Notes: a model not told the origin generated them from the letters alone. Shown: positions 2,883-11,847, counted from the first letter of the stretch. The stretch is DNA of 41,926 nucleotides from a virus (UHGV-0116964); one strand, 5' to 3'. Numbers and translations are program-made.

Positions 2883-5800
2883 TTATGCCTGAGTACGCAG
2901 CGCTTCAAGGCGGCGCAGGTCGAAGTCGTTCAGTTCGTCGGTGTAGTCAGCAGTGATTGGCGCTGGCCATTCACCTGTGTCGAATCCGGTTGCGATATTG
3001 CGCATCGCTTTGCGGTACTCGAGCATACCCAGCTCCAGTAGTTCAGCGGATGCCTCGATGATGGCGATCCAGTGGTAGTTCTCGTCTTTGTTGACGAAAA
3101 TCCAGAAGAACTGATCCAGCGCTGCGGTTTCGCAGTACATAGCCGCGCTCAGGTGATAATCACGTTCAATAATTTCCCGGTGTAGCCTGGCGCGCAGGCT
3201 TTCCTGCTTAACATTCCACATGCTGATGGTTTTCAGGTCAGCACCGATACGCACGCCGTCTAGGTCGATCTCAAGATCAGGGCGCACACGAACTTCCAGT
3301 CCCGTCTCCTCGTCAAAGCCAAAGTAGCTCACCTCAACGGCGCGGCTCGGGTGGGTTAGCAGCATGCCTGCGGTCGGGTGTGCCAGAAGCGCTTTTTGAA
3401 TATTCAGCGCGGTGCTCAGCTGCTGGCGGGTGACCAGCACTTTTCCTTCCGGGTTATCGCGCCAGGCATCCAGCAGTTCGTCGGCAAATACGGCATCTGG
3501 TTTGACTGCCTTCACGGCCTGGATCATGTCTGCTTTGGTACCGGACACTTTCAGTGGTGCCGGTTTCTGTGCTTCCTGAGCCACAAGGTCAGGGTTGATG
3601 ATTGCCAACTGCTCCAGCAGCGCGTCACGGCTGCCGCTGGTTTTAACCGGCGGCGGCAGGGTGGCGTTGTACTCTTTAATGCATGCCTTCATTGCCGTCG
3701 CCGTCTGCTTCTGGTCACCATCAATACGCTGGAAGTCAGCTGGCAGCGCCATATAGTTCTGTGCCGTTTCTTCCAGGTTAGCGCCAAGCGGAACCTGCGG
3801 CGGCAGGGTGGCGTTGTACTCTTCCAGTAACACCTTGATGTCGTCGGCAGACAGCAGCGCCGGCAGGCTGGCATTGTGCTCATCGATAAAGGCGCGCAGG
3901 GTCGCGGCCGTTGTGAATGCGCCTTCAGGGATCACCGGTTCAACGCTGAATTCTGCGTCCAGTAGTTCAGGCTGCAACGCCAGCGCATGCACCAAGTTGC
4001 CCATGTCCAGCACCGCTGAGCGCTCTTTGACGATGGTTTTCTCTACGTGGCGCGCATTGAAGTACATCAGCGAAACGCGCGCATCTTTCACCTGGGTTGA
4101 GCTGATGCCGTTGGCGGCGTGGTAAACCTCGTTTGGCAGCCCTTCATAGCGGCCTGGCTCGAAATAAGCGGGATAAACAACAGCTGGTTCGTCAGATTGC
4201 GCTTCTGGCTCGGTTTGTGCTGCAACTGGTTCGGTTTGGCTTACAGAATCGCTATTTTTGGCGACAGAATCCGTATTCTGGTTTACATCGTCCTTCTGGC
4301 TGGTATCTGACTCTTCACCAGACTCCAGACTGCTTTCGCCTGGCTGTACTTCATCACCAACATTTTTTTCATCACTGACAGTTTCTTGAACCTGCACATT
4401 GCTGGTGGTTTCCGTAGCCTGTTTCGTGCCATGAGTTGCTGAGTTCTGCAGTAAAGCCGTAACATCGAATATTCCGTTGCCGACATTTTTAACCAGTTCT
4501 TGTTCGGCTTTATGTGGTTGTGCTGTCGCTTCCTCTGCGCGGCGGCGTGCTTCTTCTTCACGTACGCGTTGCAGGTTCTCTTCGTGAGTGCAGAAGGATT
4601 TGCGCGGAGACTCCTTACCTTCAGGTTGGGGAATTTCCTGTGCTGCGGGTTCAGCCTCATGCAACGGCAATAACTCGACCGCGGAATTGAACGCGGCTGT
4701 CATGGTCTGGTTAACAAATTCCAGGTGAGCGACAGGAGTTAAATGAATATTTTCCGGTGCGATACGTACCAGGTTAAAAATAGCCGTGCGGTTAACACCC
4801 AGAACGCCTGGCTGATTGCGCAGGATGTTGCTCCATGATTTCCATGGTTCTTCTTTTTTGGTCACGATTTCTTTAGCGCGACGAAGAATGCTGCCCGGGA
4901 TCTCGAAGTGGTTGAAGTCCATAGGCAGAAGGGCACATGCAATCTCTAAATCGAGAGTGTCAAGGGTATGGTATGTATCAGGTCCACGGTCAGTGACGTA
5001 ACCGCCGTTGGCATTGGTTCCGGAATCAGTACGCTGCACACTACTGATGCGATTACCGGCGGCCCATTCGCGAACAAGGATACCGCGGTCGATGTGATCT
5101 GTAGCGAACCACAATTTCAAAAACTGGATTAAGGTTGCGAGTTCAGGGATTTTTCCATCGACAGGGAAGACTTTCTTAACGGCATTCACGACTTTATGAA
5201 TATCGTGCTCAATGGCTTTTTTGAATGCTTCCACATTCTCAGCTGCCAGCAGCAGGTTCTGGACGTACGCGTCATCGGTGTCCATCTCAAGGCGGACAAT
5301 CTCATTTTTCTGCCCTGCGTCGATGTGATAGAGATATTCACCATCACCGATGAACTGAGCCAGTACGCGCTGGCGGAATGGCAGGGTGGCAACAACGATC
5401 AGGTTCGGTTGCTGTGTCTGCTGGGATTGCTCTTCGGTATCGACTTCACCATCAACGACGCCACCTTCTGCCCGGCCGTTCTCGTCGGTCTGGATACCGT
5501 CCTCAACAGTGAGATCTTGACCAGTTGTAACGTCAGCAGCGTTGCTGGTTTCAGTTTTGAGCAACTGCAACTTACCACTGCGCCAGTCTTCTACCAGTTG
5601 ATTGCGGTCACCGGCATCGGTGTTCACCCAGTCAGACATGAATGCAGCGATCAATCTTGGTTCGTGCTCTTCGTCTGGTGTGAAAATGTCCTTAACCGCC
5701 CGAATCATTTTCCACTCAGCATTCAGGCTGAGTTTGGCGGTCGCGGGCACATCGTTCCTTGCCACAAGCAGGCTATGGAGATATGTATTGCCTTCATCCA

Positions 5801-6272
5801 GTGACATTTCGCTGGCAGCCAACTGCTGCTCTTTAGTGACGTGGGTTTGGTATTTATCGTTCATCAGATGGACGGCAAAGCGGACCGCTGGAGTACGGTT
5901 TTCAACCGGGACAATTTCGGACGCAGTCGCATCTTCAACGATTACGGTCGGAGTAGGTGTGTAGGGGGCGTCAACGGAACCAGTAGACACACCAGCGGCT
6001 TTTGGCAGCCAGGTGCGCCCATCGTCCTGAAGCTCGTAGCGATCACACCAGGTAAAATCAACTTCACCTTCTTTCGGCAGACCGTCGACAACTGGGAAAT
6101 CAGTGCGAATCGGTTTGGCGTAGTCCTTACCCCGACCTGTTTCGATACCTGCATCTTCCAGCGCAACATCCAGCATCAGATTGGCGCGAGCCTCGGTTTT
6201 AGCAGTGAACCAGACCACTGCATCTTGCTTTCCGGATTTCTGAGTGGCTTTAACCACATTAAAGAATTCCAT
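2883..6272 (-). CDS. recE: Exodeoxyribonuclease VIII (RecE-like) with long N-terminal extension
   Basis: 1129 aa; C-terminal ~300 aa has the RecE/lambda-Exo-like nuclease look; long acidic/low-complexity N-terminal region; gene order recE-recT as in Rac. Confidence 0.7.
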   Translation of the reverse strand: MEFFNVVKATQKSGKQDAVVWFTAKTEARANLMLDVALEDAGIETGRGKDYAKPIRTDFPVVDGLPKEGEVDFTWCDRYELQDDGRTWLPKAAGVSTGSVDAPYTPTPTVIVEDATASEIVPVENRTPAVRFAVHLMNDKYQTHVTKEQQLAASEMSLDEGNTYLHSLLVARNDVPATAKLSLNAEWKMIRAVKDIFTPDEEHEPRLIAAFMSDWVNTDAGDRNQLVEDWRSGKLQLLKTETSNAADVTTGQDLTVEDGIQTDENGRAEGGVVDGEVDTEEQSQQTQQPNLIVVATLPFRQRVLAQFIGDGEYLYHIDAGQKNEIVRLEMDTDDAYVQNLLLAAENVEAFKKAIEHDIHKVVNAVKKVFPVDGKIPELATLIQFLKLWFATDHIDRGILVREWAAGNRISSVQRTDSGTNANGGYVTDRGPDTYHTLDTLDLEIACALLPMDFNHFEIPGSILRRAKEIVTKKEEPWKSWSNILRNQPGVLGVNRTAIFNLVRIAPENIHLTPVAHLEFVNQTMTAAFNSAVELLPLHEAEPAAQEIPQPEGKESPRKSFCTHEENLQRVREEEARRRAEEATAQPHKAEQELVKNVGNGIFDVTALLQNSATHGTKQATETTSNVQVQETVSDEKNVGDEVQPGESSLESGEESDTSQKDDVNQNTDSVAKNSDSVSQTEPVAAQTEPEAQSDEPAVVYPAYFEPGRYEGLPNEVYHAANGISSTQVKDARVSLMYFNARHVEKTIVKERSAVLDMGNLVHALALQPELLDAEFSVEPVIPEGAFTTAATLRAFIDEHNASLPALLSADDIKVLLEEYNATLPPQVPLGANLEETAQNYMALPADFQRIDGDQKQTATAMKACIKEYNATLPPPVKTSGSRDALLEQLAIINPDLVAQEAQKPAPLKVSGTKADMIQAVKAVKPDAVFADELLDAWRDNPEGKVLVTRQQLSTALNIQKALLAHPTAGMLLTHPSRAVEVSYFGFDEETGLEVRVRPDLEIDLDGVRIGADLKTISMWNVKQESLRARLHREIIERDYHLSAAMYCETAALDQFFWIFVNKDENYHWIAIIEASAELLELGMLEYRKAMRNIATGFDTGEWPAPITADYTDELNDFDLRRLEALRTQA

Positions 6273-6791: not shown

Positions 6792-7036
6792 GATGTTCTC
6801 CAGTTTTTCTGAGTGAACTTCGCTGGTGGTGCCGCGGCGCTGATCTTCACGGTTGAGCGTTTTAACTCTGCAATTCACCACCGCGAAGCTCACTCTGTGC
6901 TTTGCCCTTGTCGCCAGGCTGGCGGAACGTTTCAAACCTACTGCGCGTTAATCTCACCACCTCATTCCGGTCTTCGTATGCCCCGGACGGCTTCTTCGTG
7001 GGCGTCCTGCTTTGGTGGTTGTGTTGATGGAGTAAT

Positions 7037-7072
7037 TAAACACAATGTTTATTTGCGTGTCAACATAATGAG
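7037..7072. promoter_or_regulatory. OL-like operator pair (TAAACACAATGTTTA ... CAACATAATG)
   Basis: Palindrome TAAACA-CAA-TGTTTA is near-identical to the OR site TAAACA-TAA-TGTTTA at about 9107; the two cores are 23 bp apart at both loci. Confidence 0.5.
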
Positions 7073-7175
7073 TGTTTTTATATAAACAAAAAGTTTAGTT
7101 GGTTGCGCTCGTTGGCACGAGTAGTATGTTTTATGGTCTATTTTGTGGTTATAAAAAAATCGATGAGGGTGAGTT

Positions 7176-7382
7176 ATGGATCGTGACGAACTGGAAGAAG
7201 ACCGCGCAGCGTTTATTGCGGGGGAGATTGGTGGCGCAGTTGTCAGTCTGATAGCTAACGGGATTGTGATCAGCCGCGATGCGATTGTGGATAGTCTAGA
7301 GGCTAAGCGCAGGGTAGTGGGAAACGTCATTCACAAGTGGGTATTGCGGGATGCGGTTGCTATGGTGAGAAAAGGGCAATAA
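7176..7382 (+). CDS. Hypothetical 68 aa protein, convergent with the cassette
   Basis: Track ORF with GAGGGTGAG SD; ends in the shared bidirectional terminator; no recognised domain. Confidence 0.5.
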   Translation: MDRDELEEDRAAFIAGEIGGAVVSLIANGIVISRDAIVDSLEAKRRVVGNVIHKWVLRDAVAMVRKGQ

Positions 7383-7412
7383 AAAACCCAGTTCGGTAAC
7401 TGGGTTATTGCT
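7381..7412. terminator. Bidirectional intrinsic terminator
   Basis: AACCCAGTT-CGGT-AACTGGGTT hairpin flanked by an A-run upstream and T-rich downstream; strongest on the minus strand, directly after cassette gene A. Confidence 0.6.
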
Positions 7413-7838
7413 TTATTCAACAGATGATGGGGGGGTCGGTGCTTTCTTAAAGATCGACCACTGAGAAATGTAGGTCAGCAACCTTGAGCTTAACTCGAGT
7501 TCTTTTCGTAATATTTCGTCATAACGTTTTTTTGCTGCTTGCATGGTCGCATCACTAGCGTGATTGTCATCCATAATGATCTTTAGCCTTTTCTTTTCTC
7601 GGCTTGAGCATATTGTAAATAACAGACCTGTAAATGACATTCCACCAAAATCCTTTAACGTTTTGATTACAAAAAGAAGAATCAAAGACAGAAAAGGAAC
7701 AGATCTGTAGGCCCAATCACGAAACTCACCGTCAGGAAAGAAGATAGGAATAGCATCTGTAGCATAACCACATATGAGGGAGACAATTAGAAAAGGTAGT
7801 CCATTTTTAGCTACATTTTTAACGTTATCGTTAGCCAT
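7413..7838 (-). CDS. Cassette gene A: ~141 aa membrane protein (hydrophobic N-terminal half, charged helical C-terminal tail)
   Basis: Track ORF 7413..7871; the ATG at 7838 has a GGGAAA SD and overlaps the gene B stop (ATGGCTAA); AT-rich codon usage. Confidence 0.6.
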   Translation of the reverse strand: MANDNVKNVAKNGLPFLIVSLICGYATDAIPIFFPDGEFRDWAYRSVPFLSLILLFVIKTLKDFGGMSFTGLLFTICSSREKKRLKIIMDDNHASDATMQAAKKRYDEILRKELELSSRLLTYISQWSIFKKAPTPPSSVE

Positions 7839-8214
7839 GATTTTTTCCCGAGAACGATTTCGAGTCAACATGTAACTTTTGTGTTTTGACTACATAATAC
7901 GCAAATCCAATCTTAACTAACCAATAAGCTACTGGTATGAGTGCTGCGTAAAGAGGGATATAGTACATAACCTTACCTCCTGTTAACCACACTATAACAC
8001 CTAGCATCACTATTAGCGCGACAGAAAATGCTTTCAGCCCAACACAGCTATCAGGATGTGAAACACTGTTCCTTAGCAACAATATCCTGGATTCATCAAG
8101 TGTGTAAGGAATATCGCCAACATGATTTTCGATTTTTGGGAAGGTCTCAAATACTTCAACCCGATCAATCGAAATAATTGAGCTTGATTGATGATCTAAG
8201 CAAACTGCAGCCAC
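7831..8214 (-). CDS. Cassette gene B: 127 aa protein with soluble N-terminal part and two C-terminal hydrophobic helices
   Basis: Track ORF; GTG start with GAGGG SD, 2 nt after the gene C stop; AT-rich. Confidence 0.6.
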   Translation of the reverse strand: MAAVCLDHQSSSIISIDRVEVFETFPKIENHVGDIPYTLDESRILLLRNSVSHPDSCVGLKAFSVALIVMLGVIVWLTGGKVMYYIPLYAALIPVAYWLVKIGFAYYVVKTQKLHVDSKSFSGKNHG

Positions 8215-8216
8215 TG

Positions 8217-8540
8217 TTATCCCTCTCGAACCTTTAGTGATACTCGGTTAGCAGCAAATGTGGCAATGAAACCACATTCTACACATATAACAGGGAATGC
8301 CCATATACCTCGGCCAGCTGAATGAGGTAGAGGAAGGGTAATTATTGCAGGATAGTCTTGACTATCTTCTCGTGGAGGAACTCCCCAAAGCGTATGCTTA
8401 CAAAGCGGACAGGCCATCTCGCCATGTTTTTCTTCGAGGCGTTGAAAATAATCTCGAAATTCTTGTCTTGATATTGATAGCGTCAATGCTGTTGTATTGA
8501 CACTTTCCTGACTTTTTTCTTCTTCAACCTGTTCGCCCAT
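8217..8540 (-). CDS. Cassette gene C: ~107 aa zinc-ribbon-like protein (CPLC...CVEC)
   Basis: Track ORF 8217..8552 (TTG start); internal ATG at 8540 with GAGAG SD; two CxxC pairs; acidic N-terminus. Confidence 0.55.
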   Translation of the reverse strand: MGEQVEEEKSQESVNTTALTLSISRQEFRDYFQRLEEKHGEMACPLCKHTLWGVPPREDSQDYPAIITLPLPHSAGRGIWAFPVICVECGFIATFAANRVSLKVREG

Positions 8541-8651
8541 CTCAGCTCTCAATATAATGATAATTAACTGGTAAGTGAATTTTGCATATCGTTAAGATGT
8601 ATCCCATTGGTACAGAAACATCTGAGGGGTAAGTAGCTTTTAACTACCGTG

Positions 8652-9047
8652 CTACTCACCATCCCCCTTAATCCGCCGTCCCATGTACTTGGCGTACAGT
8701 TCATCGAGTTCTTTCAACCGTAGAGATACGATCCGCAACATGTTCTGTTGTTCTTCTTCGTTTGGGAGTTGATTATAGAGTTCCAACAGTCTCCGTTCGT
8801 CGTGTCTCAAACCGTCCTTAGCATCCACGTCCTGACCTAGAACCCACTCAAGACTTACGCCTAGCGCATCGGCAAGTTTTATTGCTGAGCTTTTTCCTAT
8901 CGCTCCTCTGACAAACCAGTTGTTGACTGATTGTGCGCTCACACCACAGATTCTCGCTATATCCGCTTTGGATATGCGCTTCTTCTCGATGATTTCATTT
9001 AACCGCCGAACCTGCGGGTTATCTGTTTGGTGTGTGTTTTTTCTCAT
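8652..9047 (-). CDS. Prophage repressor, DicA/RacR-like HTH (XRE family)
   Basis: 131 aa; N-terminal HTH (ISKADIARICGVSAQSVNNW); C-terminal LLELYNQLPNEEE resembles the DicA tail; divergent from a cro-like gene across operator palindromes. Confidence 0.8.
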   Translation of the reverse strand: MRKNTHQTDNPQVRRLNEIIEKKRISKADIARICGVSAQSVNNWFVRGAIGKSSAIKLADALGVSLEWVLGQDVDAKDGLRHDERRLLELYNQLPNEEEQQNMLRIVSLRLKELDELYAKYMGRRIKGDGE

Positions 9048-9080
9048 ATATCAAGATTCTAAACTAAAAGTTTATCGCCT

Positions 9081-9121
9081 CAACATTCATAATGTTGACT
9101 TGAACATAAACATAATGTTTA
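9081..9121. promoter_or_regulatory. OR-like operator pair with divergent promoters
   Basis: CAACAT-tcata-ATGTTG (about 9081..9097) and TAAACA-TAA-TGTTTA (about 9107..9121); TTGACT -35 at about 9095 for the rightward promoter; TAGAAT -10 on the minus strand 7 nt before the repressor ATG (near-leaderless). Confidence 0.55.
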
Positions 9122-9150
9122 ATTTGGTTCGTTATTACTTGGAGCCAAAT

Positions 9151-9384
9151 ATGAAAGCACTTGATAAAGCAATATGCATCGTAGGGGGTGCAACCCGTTT
9201 AGCAGAAAAGCTCAATGTATCCCCAATGACGGTCAGTCACTGGCGTCACCGTGACAATGGATTCGTACCGGCTAACCGTGTCATTCCTATTTTCAATGCT
9301 ACAGGTGTAACTCCACATGAGTTACGCCCTGATTTGTACCTCAACCCTACGGATGGATTACCGGCTCAGGAAGCGAGGGCATAA
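9151..9384 (+). CDS. Cro-like HTH regulator (YdaS-type)
   Basis: 77 aa from the ATG at 9151 (GGAG SD); MKALDKAICIVGGATRLAEKLNVS...GFVPA pattern; divergent from the repressor. Confidence 0.7.
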   Translation: MKALDKAICIVGGATRLAEKLNVSPMTVSHWRHRDNGFVPANRVIPIFNATGVTPHELRPDLYLNPTDGLPAQEARA

Positions 9385-9926: not shown

Positions 9927-10010
9927 CCGGTTCAAAAATGGCGAAAGCCGCGGTGCTCGAACACCAACGGCTTTCAGGTGCAAAAACAGTGCGTAATTGC
10001 GGAGAACAGT

Positions 10011-10919
10011 ATGTCAAACACCGCTGAAATAATCAATTTCCCAAATAAAACCGAACAACCGGGAGGTCGTATGGCCGACCTGTCGAACGGGTATACCAAG
10101 GTCGCTAACGAGATCCAACAGCTTAAGCCTCGCCTGAGACTGTCAGGCCGGGAATGGCAATGTTTTGAGGCGGTGATCTGGCTTACCTACGGCTGGAACA
10201 AGAAACAGGACCGCGTGACAAATACGGTTATTGCCGAGCTTACGGGCCTGAGCGATACGCATGTATCGGACGCGCTTAAGTCTCTCGCAGAACGCAAAAT
10301 CATCTTTTCACAGAAGCAGGGCATGATGAAAATCGTCGGTGTAAACACTGACCTTTCAGCATGGATTTTAGACAAACCGGAAACGGGAAGAAAATTCCCG
10401 AAAACGGGAAAATCCTTCCCGAAATCAGGAATAACCTTCCCGAAAACGGTAGACACCCAATACAAGAACAAGAACAGTATTAAAAGATCTTCGTCCGAGA
10501 ATTCTGACGAATCCTCTGACGCACGTCTGAAGAAATTTTTATCAACTCATCCTGAAGCTGCGGTCTACACACCATCCGGTGCGAAGTGGGGCTCTGCTGA
10601 AGACCTCGAGACAGCTAAGTGGATTTCCTCCAGGGTGAAGCTGATTAACCCAACCTGCAAAGCCCCGGACATGACCTCCTGGTCTAACACTGTTCGCCTG
10701 ATGCGCCAGATAGACGACCGGTCGCACCAGGACATCTGCGCGCTGTATGACTGGGCTAGCAAACACCACTTCTGGCAGACCAACATCCTGAGTCCCGAAA
10801 GCCTGCGTAAGCAGTGGGACAAGCTGACAATGCAGCGTAACGCCGGAGGTGAGCAGCGCGCTGTCAAGCCAGATCTGGACTTCAACAACACTGACTGGGC
10901 CTATGGGGTGATCCGATGA
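10011..10919 (+). CDS. Replication initiator O (lambda O-like)
   Basis: Track ORF 9978..10919; from the ATG at 10011 (GGAGAA SD) the N-terminus MSNTAEIINF...ADLSNGY matches lambda O MTNTAKILNF...ADLDDGY; iterons embedded in the gene. Confidence 0.8.
   Translation: MSNTAEIINFPNKTEQPGGRMADLSNGYTKVANEIQQLKPRLRLSGREWQCFEAVIWLTYGWNKKQDRVTNTVIAELTGLSDTHVSDALKSLAERKIIFSQKQGMMKIVGVNTDLSAWILDKPETGRKFPKTGKSFPKSGITFPKTVDTQYKNKNSIKRSSSENSDESSDARLKKFLSTHPEAAVYTPSGAKWGSAEDLETAKWISSRVKLINPTCKAPDMTSWSNTVRLMRQIDDRSHQDICALYDWASKHHFWQTNILSPESLRKQWDKLTMQRNAGGEQRAVKPDLDFNNTDWAYGVIR
10377..10454 (+). repeat. Origin iterons: four copies of TTCCCGAAAACGGGAA-like units at 21-bp spacing, followed by an AT-rich stretch
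   Basis: Units at about 10377, 10395, 10416, 10437; encode the FPKTG peptide repeats in O; same arrangement as lambda ori inside O. Confidence 0.6.
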
Positions 10920-11605
10920 AATCTCTTGCAGAGCAGATGCGTAACCACGACCGCGAGCAGATGAGCCGCATGGCCCATAACCTGCCAGAGCAGTACCAGG
11001 AGTGCGCGCCGGTCGAGCAGGTGGCGCAGGTATTCAACAAGCTGTTCAACGAGCTGCGCGCCGCGTTCCCGGCCAGCATGGCGAACTTCCGCACCCAGGA
11101 AGACCTGAACGAATTCCGCCGTCAGTGGCTGCTGGCGTTTCAGGAGAACGGGATCCACACCATGGCTCAGGTCGATGCCGGCATGCGCATTGCCCGCCGC
11201 CAGGAGCGCCCATTCCTGCCGTCGCCGGGCCAGTTCGTCGCCTGGTGCAAGCAGAGCGGCGGCGCGCTGGGCGTCAACGTTGACCAGGTGATCGCCGAAT
11301 ACTGGGACTGGCGTAACCGCTCGTTCGAATTCATCTCCAGCGAGCAATTTCCATGGTCGCAGCCGGTCATGTACCACATTTGCGTAGAATTGCGCCACCG
11401 CAGCACCGAGCGCCAGTTAACGCATGGTGAACTGGCACGCGAGGCAGGCGATCTGCTGGACATGTGGGAAAGGCGCGTCACCGAGGGTAAGCCAGTGCCG
11501 CCGGTACGCCGGGCTATTGCCGCACCAGCTGCCGAGCAAGGGCCGACGCCGATCCAGCTGCTGCTGGCCAAGTACAACCGCAACAAGTCGAACGGGATGG
11601 TGTGA
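10916..11605 (+). CDS. Replication protein P (helicase loader, lambda P-like)
   Basis: 229 aa; MKSLAEQMRNHDREQM...RPFLPSPGQFVAWC is near-identical in pattern to lambda P; ATGA overlap with O. Confidence 0.85.
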   Translation: MKSLAEQMRNHDREQMSRMAHNLPEQYQECAPVEQVAQVFNKLFNELRAAFPASMANFRTQEDLNEFRRQWLLAFQENGIHTMAQVDAGMRIARRQERPFLPSPGQFVAWCKQSGGALGVNVDQVIAEYWDWRNRSFEFISSEQFPWSQPVMYHICVELRHRSTERQLTHGELAREAGDLLDMWERRVTEGKPVPPVRRAIAAPAAEQGPTPIQLLLAKYNRNKSNGMV

Positions 11606-11664
11606 CATGAACATAACAATCCGTGAGCAGGTGCTGGCAGCCCTGCGCAACAACCCAGGGTTGA

Positions 11665-11847
11665 ACAACGCCAAACTGGCAGGGCTTCCCGGAGTGGTAC
11701 ATCATCGATCAGGACTATCGGGGGCAGAAGTACGCGAAGGACAAGCAGGTTGCGCGTTGTGGCAACGCAGTTCCGCCGCCATTCGCCGAGGCACTGGTGA
11801 GGGCTAATTTACCGGAGCTTTGTCAGCAGAAAGAGATCGCAGCTTAA
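11665..11847 (+). pseudogene. C-terminal fragment of a C5-cytosine DNA methyltransferase (motif IX-X remnant)
   Basis: One frame reads ...NWQGFPEWYIIDQDYRGQKYAKDKQVARCGNAVPPPFAEALVRANLPELCQQKEIAA*, matching QGFPD...GNAV; no N-terminal catalytic part upstream (abuts P). Confidence 0.4.

What the first reader, a model, noticed from the sequence alone, without database searches (positions are those of the whole stretch)
7413..8552. AT-rich three-gene cassette in the rexAB/sieB slot: candidate novel exclusion or defence system
Three translationally coupled minus-strand genes lie directly downstream of the repressor gene and inside the OL-OR interval, the position of rexAB in lambda and sieB in Rac/P22. 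Gene C is a ~107 aa acidic zinc-ribbon-like protein. Gene B (127 aa) has a soluble N-terminal domain and two hydrophobic helices. Gene A (~141 aa) has a hydrophobic N-terminal half and a charged helical tail. The B/A junction is ATGGCTAA, the C/B gap is 2 nt, and the operon ends in a strong hairpin with a U-tract. The block is clearly AT-richer than the surrounding phage DNA, indicating separate acquisition. I do not recognise any of the three proteins, though gene A could be a distant SieB analogue.
Basis: inference. Interest (0 to 1): 0.8.

Follow-up and report, generated by a model that had tools for sequence, protein, structure and literature searches.

The report
Uncharacterised repressor-linked prophage membrane cassette
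Directly behind the repressor gene of a Rac-like E. coli prophage, where phage lambda carries rexAB, sit three conserved genes of unknown function (a small zinc-ribbon protein and two small membrane proteins) that match no known defence system and are a good but untested candidate for a new phage-exclusion system.

Summary
Three tightly packed minus-strand genes follow the repressor gene inside the OL-OR interval and end in a strong terminator: C 8217-8540 (107 aa), B 7831-8214 (127 aa) and A 7413-7838 (141 aa). The block is 40% GC against 52-54% in the flanks. All three genes are under purifying selection. They stay in the same order in all 18 related loci, from E. coli, Klebsiella, Cedecea, related IMG/VR viral contigs and phage PHB10. 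There they sit behind two different repressor architectures and next to different replication and recombination modules.

None of the three proteins matches Pfam, NCBIfam, PADLOC, the PDB, or lambda RexA, RexB or SieB.

C belongs to a wider zinc-ribbon family (phrog_4293, four invariant Cys). This family is usually the first gene after a prophage repressor in Enterobacterales and Pseudomonas. Its partners vary: one single-pass coiled-coil membrane protein, two membrane proteins as here, or two soluble proteins.

The best reading is a cassette expressed in the lysogen that works like Rex, with a cytoplasmic zinc-ribbon regulator and membrane effectors. Function is inferred, not shown. The suggested SieB analogy is not supported.

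The parts
8217..8540 (-). Gene C: 107-aa acidic cytoplasmic zinc-ribbon protein. It is the first gene of the cassette and belongs to the phrog_4293 family.
   Evidence: ORF. RefSeq calls it as WP_124062403. It matches phrog_4293 at E 3.7e-7. Cys44/47/86/89 are invariant in 36 family members. The AF2 model has pLDDT 71.7, with helices followed by beta strands. Only generic zinc-ribbon fold matches were found.
7831..8214 (-). Gene B: 127-aa inner-membrane protein. It has a ~55-aa N-terminal soluble region with the invariant motif PKIENxxGDIPY, a TM hairpin and a short basic tail.
   Evidence: ORF with GTG start, 2 nt after the C stop. Family alignment A2. KD hydropathy peaks at 57-75 and 82-109. 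AF2 helices at 58-77 and 82-112; the rest has low confidence.
7413..7838 (-). Gene A: 141-aa inner-membrane protein. It has two hydrophobic segments, then a charged tail of about 65 aa that is probably helical and ends in a conserved PxPP.
   Evidence: ORF; its ATG overlaps the B stop (ATGGCTAA). Family alignment A3. Hydropathy. No Pfam, PADLOC or NCBIfam hit.
7375..7411 (.). Intrinsic terminator hairpin that ends the cassette. It also scores as a terminator on the + strand, for the convergent ORF 7176-7382.
   Evidence: -16.2 kcal/mol, z = -4.7.
8541..8651 (-). 111-nt spacer between the repressor stop and the C start. No terminator is predicted on the minus strand. There is one weak promoter-like site at 8579..8551.
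   Evidence: The equivalent spacers in related loci are 18-111 nt; the Cedecea locus, about 255 nt with a small YoaK-like ORF in it, is the exception.
8652..9047 (-). Prophage repressor: 131 aa, HTH_3 / CI-type, with no Peptidase_S24 domain. It is the presumed source of the transcript that carries C-B-A.
   Evidence: Pfam HTH_3 2.9e-8 and Phage_CI_repr 1.6e-5. phrog_8.
7034..7097 (.). OL/PL region, with two copies of the 15-bp operator palindrome.
   Evidence: repeats D1 and I1.
9060..9124 (.). OR/PR-PRM region, with two copies of the same palindrome. It mirrors OL.
   Evidence: repeats D1 and I1.

Best explanation
C-B-A is an accessory ('moron') operon of a Rac-like lambdoid prophage. It is probably transcribed together with the repressor in the lysogen.

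It probably encodes a small inner-membrane complex that faces the cytoplasm. B and A are each a two-helix membrane hairpin whose extra-membrane parts are predicted to lie in the cytoplasm. C is a soluble zinc-ribbon protein.

Most likely mechanism: it works like lambda RexAB. C would be the cytoplasmic regulatory subunit. It would either sense a cue from a superinfecting phage, or act as a labile inhibitor that is lost when that phage shuts off host expression. B and A would be the effectors that compromise the membrane or arrest growth, aborting the infection.

Shown: gene anatomy, tight coupling, conservation as a unit, mobility between immunity regions, the membrane and zinc-ribbon architecture, and C as the constant partner of variable second components.

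Inferred: expression in the lysogen, a C-B/A interaction, the trigger, the membrane-damaging output, and the anti-phage role itself.
For: 1. Slot. The cassette is on the repressor's strand, 111 nt downstream, with no predicted terminator in between and one strong terminator after A. It lies inside the OL-OR interval, like rexAB in lambda. The literature describes the repressor-to-N interval as a hotspot for lysogen-expressed accessory and abortive-infection genes such as rexAB and bstA (PMC7067206; PMC8585504).

2. Conserved unit. The C-B-A order was found in all 18 related loci. These carry either a 125-131-aa HTH-only repressor or a 228-240-aa HTH+S24 CI, and different replication and recombination modules. 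The cassette GC is 7-12 points below its flanks in these loci. pN is well below pS for all three genes.

3. Soluble plus membrane architecture. This is the logic of RexA/RexB. RexB-type effectors cause membrane damage when stimulated (abstract of PMC12894663).

4. C as a constant module. In at least 13 of about 20 distinct contexts, a C-family gene is the first gene after a repressor (the 143-aa upstream gene of L040 has no Pfam match and is counted as a repressor on position alone). The downstream partners vary. Some loci have one protein with an N-domain, one TM helix and a coiled coil (L026-28, L031, L033-36, L039, L044). Some have two membrane proteins (this clade, L038, L046). Some have two soluble proteins (L009, L020-25, L040). 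I read a constant small component with swappable output components as typical of defence systems; that comparison is from my own knowledge.

5. One soluble-partner cassette lies at a prophage end beside tail-fibre genes, another classical moron slot.
Against: - There is no experimental or transcript evidence.
- No component hits PADLOC.
- There is no homology to RexA, RexB or SieB.
- C's fold gives only generic zinc-ribbon matches.
- B's N-terminal region is modelled with low confidence, and A was not modelled.
- Position behind a repressor also fits non-defence morons.
- The cassette is rare: 5 of 5426 complete E. coli genomes.
- In the single-partner relatives the coiled coil would be periplasmic if the N-terminus is cytoplasmic. 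That does not obviously fit a purely cytoplasmic sensing model.
Confidence: 0.4

Rival explanations
1. Superinfection exclusion at the inner membrane. B and A, held or regulated by C, would block DNA entry of incoming phages instead of killing or arresting the cell. P22 SieA, T4 Imm and the lactococcal Sie2009 proteins encoded next to repressor genes act this way (from my own knowledge of those systems).
For: The cassette has two small inner-membrane proteins and is presumably expressed in the lysogen next to the repressor. The single-partner relatives have a long C-terminal coiled coil that would face the periplasm if the N-terminus is cytoplasmic. That location suits interference with the injection machinery.
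Against: In B and A the predicted periplasmic exposure is tiny: a loop of about 4 residues in B and about 12 in A. A conserved cytoplasmic zinc-ribbon partner is not a feature of the known Sie proteins that I recall. One branch of the C family has only soluble partners, and these cannot act at the membrane.
Confidence: 0.2
2. A non-defence accessory or regulatory module. Options include a membrane-toxin/inhibitor addiction pair that stabilises the prophage, a modulator of the lysis-lysogeny switch or of induction, or a lysogenic-conversion function that alters envelope physiology.
For: C comes first and is acidic, and small membrane proteins follow. This resembles an antitoxin-first toxin-antitoxin layout. 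Tight linkage to repressor genes of several types could reflect a role in the switch itself. A has two TM segments and a charged C-terminal tail, an outline that I recall for class II holins.
Against: The cassette sits behind unrelated repressors, with and without an S24 domain. This argues for promoter sharing, not a specific protein partnership. Some family members lie away from any repressor (L023, L027, L033, L046). The cassette is far from the lysis genes. Most prophages with the same backbone lack it: the phage DNA search matched only the flanks, and few E. coli genomes carry it. So it is dispensable.
Confidence: 0.3
3. The ORFs are chance reading frames or decaying remnants in AT-rich filler DNA.
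For: The ORFs are short, the DNA is AT-rich, and no family annotation exists.
Against: All three are conserved at 47-75% amino-acid identity with invariant motifs across genera. Synonymous sites are saturated while pN is 0.16-0.34. Start/stop coupling is conserved. Synteny holds in 18 of 18 loci.
Confidence: 0.02

Closest known systems
Lambda RexA/RexB (abortive-infection exclusion system)
   Same: The genomic slot is identical: directly downstream of the repressor gene, on the same strand, inside the OL-OR interval and ended by a terminator. It also combines a soluble cytoplasmic component with small multi-helix inner-membrane protein(s). It is an AT-rich moron.
   Different: There is no sequence relationship. 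It has three genes, not two. The soluble component is a 107-aa zinc ribbon, not the 279-aa RexA. The membrane part is two separate 2-TM proteins, not one 144-aa protein with several hydrophobic segments (RexB; sequence). Function is untested.
SieB (lambda, P22, Rac)
   Same: A small prophage-encoded protein from the immunity-proximal early-left region with hydrophobic segments. Its role is exclusion or abortive infection.
   Different: Gene A does not match the Pfam library at E<=1, and A, B and C score about zero against lambda SieB. In lambda, sieB lies outside the OL-OR interval on the opposite strand. Here the ORF with that orientation is 7176-7382, which is itself unrelated to SieB.
BstA (Salmonella phage BTP1)
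   Same: It is encoded immediately downstream of the prophage repressor and presumably shares its promoter, and this architecture is conserved across hosts (PMC8585504).
   Different: BstA is described as a single protein that localises to sites of phage DNA replication. There is no sequence similarity by library search, and BstA is not described as having membrane components.
phrog_4293 / C-family zinc-ribbon proteins (uncharacterised)
   Same: Gene C is a member. The match is E 3.7e-7. A profile search found 46 clusters at 50% identity, two of them spurious repeat proteins. The four Cys are invariant and W80 and P70 nearly so, and lengths are about 100-110 aa. Most members are the first gene after a repressor.
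   Different: Other branches pair with different partners: a single-pass coiled-coil membrane protein, or two soluble proteins including phrog_5954. Homology between B or A and those partners could not be shown.

Membership tests
RexAB | A RexA homologue is present | tested here: not met
   No Pfam hit for C, B or A at E<=1 beyond sub-threshold noise. BLASTP and HMM scores against lambda RexA are about 0 bits.
RexAB | A RexB homologue is present (about 144 aa, multi-pass membrane protein) | tested here: not met
   The A3 and A2 HMMs score 1.1 and -3.0 bits against lambda RexB. A and B each have two TM segments.
RexAB | Located downstream of the repressor, same strand, inside the OL-OR interval | tested here: met
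   compared with the lambda map.
RexAB | Expressed in the lysogen and excludes superinfecting phages by loss of membrane potential | not testable with these tools
   This needs RNA-seq of the lysogen, plaque assays and membrane-potential assays.
SieB | Sequence homology to SieB | tested here: not met
   No Pfam family for gene A at E<=1. No meaningful alignment to lambda SieB.
Known or candidate defence systems (PADLOC-DB v2.0.0) | Any component matches a defence-system model | tested here: not met
   There are 0 families for C, B and A at E<=1. The partner proteins of the soluble-partner cassettes gave no significant match; the single hit (PDC-S05, E 0.0099, 14 bits) is noise.
C family (phrog_4293 zinc-ribbon proteins) | Profile match, CxxC...CxxC with conserved Trp and Pro, length about 100-110 aa | tested here: met
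C family (phrog_4293 zinc-ribbon proteins) | First gene after a prophage repressor, tightly coupled to downstream partner gene(s) | tested here: met
   Window. Relatives. Exceptions: L023, L027, L033 and L046.
Zinc-ribbon fold | Two CxxC knuckles on beta hairpins that coordinate zinc | tested here: inconclusive
Class II holin (as an analogy for gene A) | Two TM domains with both termini in the cytoplasm, a charged C-terminal tail, and a location in the lysis cassette | tested here: inconclusive
   Two hydrophobic segments and a charged tail are present. The gene is in the immunity region, not a lysis module. No holin family matched.

The most novel reading that the evidence does not exclude
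The C-type zinc-ribbon protein defines a previously unrecognised, modular family of prophage systems in Enterobacterales and Pseudomonas. The systems usually ride on the repressor transcript. A constant small cytoplasmic sensor or regulator is combined with interchangeable outputs: a single-pass coiled-coil membrane protein, a pair of hairpin membrane proteins as in this window, or a soluble pair whose larger member (Y) carries a conserved WHYHxG...HPPF motif. On this reading the family is a new anti-phage defence family with no homology to any catalogued system.
Probability: 0.35. Interest if true: 0.75.

Novelty: new variant of a known kind. Interest (0 to 1): 0.6.

Why it matters
The repressor-proximal slot of temperate phages has already yielded RexAB and BstA, but most of what sits there is unannotated.

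This work defines a conserved three-gene unit. More usefully, it defines a small zinc-ribbon hallmark gene that flags related cassettes behind repressors in several genera.

If the cassettes are anti-phage systems, the hallmark gene gives a search handle for a family that current defence-finding tools miss. It would also provide a compact Rex-like system of about 1.1 kb in which the roles of soluble regulator and membrane effector can be separated. That bears on the long-unresolved mechanism of Rex-type exclusion.

If they are not defence systems, they are still a recurrent module that probably travels on the repressor transcript and would be relevant to prophage-host physiology.

Tried and rejected
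- **Library searches.** Pfam, NCBIfam, PADLOC and PHROGs on C, B and A gave only phrog_4293 for C. The sub-threshold hits (Rad50 zinc hook, DUF7156) are noise.
- **Structure of B.** The model has pLDDT 55 and only the TM hairpin is confident, so it was not used for fold search.
- **Is B's N-terminal region homologous to that of the single-pass partners?** hhalign aligns 21 columns over a shared IEN-x-(D/G)G-x-x-x-Y motif, with P 0.003 and probability 7-11%. The B-family HMM ranks these partners 1st, 3rd and 4th of 489 ORFs, but at E 0.4-2. The reverse search ranks B 7th of 228. I treat this as suggestive only.
- **Other partner comparisons.** B against the small soluble partner X, A against the coiled-coil partners, and A and B against the L038 membrane pair showed no detectable homology.
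- **Internal PLIT-like promoter before gene A.** The TTGACT at 7863-7868 resembles the PL/PR -35 regions. It is not conserved in other cassettes and falls in the codons for a conserved HVDS peptide. Rejected.
- **Spurious family hits.** The 751-aa and 1980-aa hits in the C-family search are a cystatin-repeat protein and an Ig-like repeat protein.
- **RNA families.** Rfam found none in the window.
- **Literature.** Searches for the accessions, PHROG ids, phage names and keyword combinations found nothing on this family.
- **The search for related loci.** Narrower subsets worked.

Full report
**1. What is in the sequence**

The window carries a Rac-like lambdoid early region. On the minus strand lie RecE (2883-6272), a YdaE-family gene and a KilR-like ORF. 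A 131-aa HTH-only repressor (8652-9047, minus) faces a YdaS-like cro gene (9151-9384, plus), a YdaT-like gene, and O/P-type replication genes.

Three ORFs lie between the repressor and the leftward operator region, on the repressor's strand:

| Gene | Coordinates | Product | Start |
|---|---|---|---|
| C | 8217-8540 | 107 aa | ATG (a TTG at 8552 is an unlikely alternative) |
| B | 7831-8214 | 127 aa | GTG |
| A | 7413-7838 | 141 aa | ATG |

- The C stop and the B start are 2 nt apart. The A start overlaps the B stop as ATGGCTAA.
- RefSeq annotates exactly these three genes as hypothetical proteins in five E. coli chromosomes.
- The operon ends in a hairpin at 7385-7406 followed by a T-tract. 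The fold is -16.2 kcal/mol with z = -4.7.
- The same hairpin also scores as a terminator for the convergent plus-strand ORF 7176-7382.
- No terminator is predicted on the minus strand in the 111 nt between the repressor and C.
- A 15-bp palindrome TAAACAnnnTGTTTA occurs twice at 7037/7083 and twice at 9060/9107. These copies lie within a 43-nt inverted repeat.
- These sites define OL and OR and place the cassette inside the immunity interval, where lambda has rexB-rexA.
- The cassette is 40.1% GC, against 52-54% around it.

**2. Are these real genes?**

Yes. Each protein has a small family of homologues confined to Enterobacteriaceae: Klebsiella, Enterobacter, Kluyvera, Cedecea and E. coli. 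Identities are 47-75% and each family has blocks of invariant residues.

Between divergent cassettes the synonymous sites are saturated (pS 0.65-0.85), while pN is 0.16-0.34.

tblastn found C, B and A in that order and immediately adjacent in all 18 related loci fetched. One of these is the sequenced Escherichia phage PHB10. An 8-nt overlap between the B stop and the A start recurs in four divergent versions.

**3. The proteins**

- **C** is acidic (pI 5.3) and soluble. It has CxxC...CxxC. The AF2 model is moderate (pLDDT 71.7): a disordered N-terminus, two helices, then beta strands around the cysteine knuckles.
- **B** has an N-terminal region of about 55 residues with the invariant motif PKIENxxGDIPY. 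A hairpin of two transmembrane (TM) helices follows, joined by an invariant GG-x-VMYYIPLY turn, and then a lysine-rich tail.
- **A** has a basic N-terminus and two hydrophobic segments separated by a loop of about 12 residues. A charged tail of about 65 residues follows and ends in a conserved PxPP.

By the positive-inside rule (my inference), almost all extra-membrane mass of B and A faces the cytoplasm, where C is.

None of the three matches any of the following:
- Pfam, NCBIfam or PADLOC.
- PDB sequences.
- Any solved or viral predicted fold beyond generic zinc ribbons.
- Lambda RexA, RexB or SieB.

The only library hit is C to phrog_4293, a family of unknown function.

**4. Context elsewhere**

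The triad is always directly downstream of a prophage repressor, but not the same repressor.
- E. coli, PHB10 and three IMG/VR viral contigs use a 125-131-aa HTH-only repressor.
- The Klebsiella and Cedecea loci use a 228-240-aa HTH+Peptidase_S24 CI.
- The adjacent replication modules differ: O/P, DnaB-type and IstB-type. So do the recombination modules: RecE/RecT, RecT/YqaJ and others.
- In these loci the cassette is 7-12 GC points below its surroundings.

This is the signature of a mobile moron that repeatedly occupies one slot. The cassette is rare: 5 of 5426 complete E. coli genomes and one sequenced phage.

**5. A wider family**

A profile search with C found 46 clusters at 50% identity. 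Two are spurious repeat proteins. The rest are proteins of about 100-110 aa with four invariant Cys and a near-invariant Trp and Pro.

Named members come from Yersinia, Pectobacterium, Kosakonia, Pseudescherichia and Metapseudomonas. All are annotated as hypothetical.

I looked at about 20 distinct contexts. In at least 13, the C-family gene is the first gene after a repressor, 18-111 nt downstream, and overlaps or abuts the next gene (one of the 13, L040, has an upstream gene with no Pfam match that I take to be the repressor). Three partner arrangements recur:

| Arrangement | Partner gene(s) | Loci |
|---|---|---|
| i | One protein of 137-187 aa: acidic N-terminal region, one TM helix, long C-terminal coiled coil | L026 (Pseudomonas phage Aurca01), L027, L028, L031, L033-36, L039, L044 |
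| ii | Two membrane proteins | The window's clade; architecture only in L038 and L046 |
| iii | Two soluble proteins: X (about 90-105 aa) and Y (about 124-135 aa, phrog_5954, motif WHYHxG...HPPF) | Yersinia phage vB_YenM_30.14 (L009), L020-25, L040 |

Sources.

There are exceptions to the repressor linkage.
- L023 sits beside tail-fibre genes at a prophage end.
- L027 and L033 sit among lipoprotein-like ORFs.
- L046 sits beside a VasI-like gene.

All the cassettes examined are AT-richer than their flanks.

A short IEN-x-(D/G)G motif is shared between B and the N-terminal regions of the arrangement (i) partners. It lies at a similar distance before the membrane segment. The statistics are weak: hhalign P 0.003, and HMM E 0.4-2. 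I therefore report it as a lead, not as homology.

**6. How it most likely works**

Facts:
- The operon is on the repressor's strand with no intervening terminator.
- It encodes a soluble zinc-ribbon protein and two cytoplasm-facing hairpin membrane proteins.
- The unit is conserved and mobile.
- The zinc-ribbon component is constant while the second component varies.

The literature identifies this interval as a common site of lysogen-expressed accessory loci, with rexAB and bstA as abortive-infection examples (PMC7067206; PMC8585504). It also shows that a RexB-type membrane effector damages the membrane when stimulated by its soluble partner (PMC12894663).

My best explanation, at confidence about 0.4, is a Rex-like system. 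C would be the cytoplasmic regulatory subunit, acting either as a sensor or as a labile inhibitor. B and A would be the membrane effectors whose activation stops a superinfecting phage at the cost of the cell's energy state.

Rivals:
- **Inner-membrane block to DNA entry** (about 0.2). The tiny predicted periplasmic exposure of B and A and the existence of soluble-partner relatives count against it.
- **Non-defence role** (about 0.3). Examples are an addiction module, a modulator of induction, or an envelope-conversion function.
- **Chance ORFs.** This is excluded.

**7. Comparison with what is known**

The cassette works like RexAB in slot and in component logic, but it fails every sequence-based membership test for RexA, RexB and SieB. 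It also fails for all PADLOC models. Gene A as a SieB analogue is not supported.

C is a member of the uncharacterised phrog_4293 family. No paper in the searchable library mentions these proteins or PHROG ids; the only term matches were to an unrelated 'PHB10'.

**8. Verdict**

The cassette is a genuine, conserved and uncharacterised prophage module in the rex slot. It is best described as a new variant of the known kind, namely repressor-linked prophage exclusion or accessory cassettes. Its proteins are unrelated to any catalogued system.

The added value of this stage is the recognition of the C-type zinc ribbon as a hallmark gene with interchangeable partners. Function remains inferred. 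Interest is 0.6.

Noticed in passing
window 7176-7382 (+): A 68-aa ORF runs convergent to the cassette and appears to share its terminator hairpin. It matches phrog_3975 (unknown function) at E 1.4e-33 over its full length, has one hydrophobic stretch at residues 14-32, and lies in DNA with a strong positive GC skew (about 0.4). As I recall the Rac map, its orientation matches that of sieB in Rac, but it is unrelated to SieB. It accompanies only the E. coli version of the cassette, and the DNA around it also matches Salmonella phage SW-37.
   Followed up: partly
window 7034-7097 and 9060-9124: The operator architecture consists of four copies of the palindrome TAAACAnnnTGTTTA, two on each side spaced 46-47 bp apart, within a 43-nt inverted repeat that mirrors PL and PR. 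This is two sites per side, not the three of lambda.
   Followed up: partly
window 8652-9047 (-): The repressor is only 131 aa and has no Peptidase_S24 domain. Induction therefore cannot work by RecA-stimulated self-cleavage and presumably needs an antirepressor or another route. Its C-terminal half is conserved with the 129-aa and 136-aa repressors that precede C-family cassettes in L028 and L038.
   Followed up: no
L009 3980-4979; L024 3998-4961; L040 3001-3951; L020 1-1024; L023 2626-3589: This is a sister three-gene cassette: a C-like zinc ribbon, X (about 90-105 aa) and Y (about 124-135 aa, phrog_5954, conserved WHYHxG...HPPF motif). All three proteins are soluble and uncharacterised and give no significant PADLOC hit. 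It lies behind cI in Yersinia phage vB_YenM_30.14 and in Kosakonia, and once beside tail-fibre genes.
   Followed up: partly
L026 3968-4818 (Pseudomonas phage Aurca01, PP179334): The C-family gene directly after cI is not annotated in the GenBank record. It is followed by a 170-aa protein with one TM helix and a coiled coil.
   Followed up: partly
L001 8712-9620 (about window 10011-10919): RefSeq marks the replication (O-like) gene of the identical prophage in strain EC17CM13 as a pseudogene with an internal stop. In the window, an uninterrupted 313-aa ORF spans 9978-10919. I did not check whether the two sequences differ.
   Followed up: no
window 10900-11800: The replication-protein-P region is 61-65% GC, about 10 points above the window mean. 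Long overlapping ORFs occur in several frames here, as expected for GC-rich DNA. This looks like another mosaic joint.
   Followed up: no
L002 5307-5405: In the Cedecea prophage a 32-aa YoaK-family ORF lies between the CI gene and gene C. It lengthens the spacer to about 255 nt.
   Followed up: no
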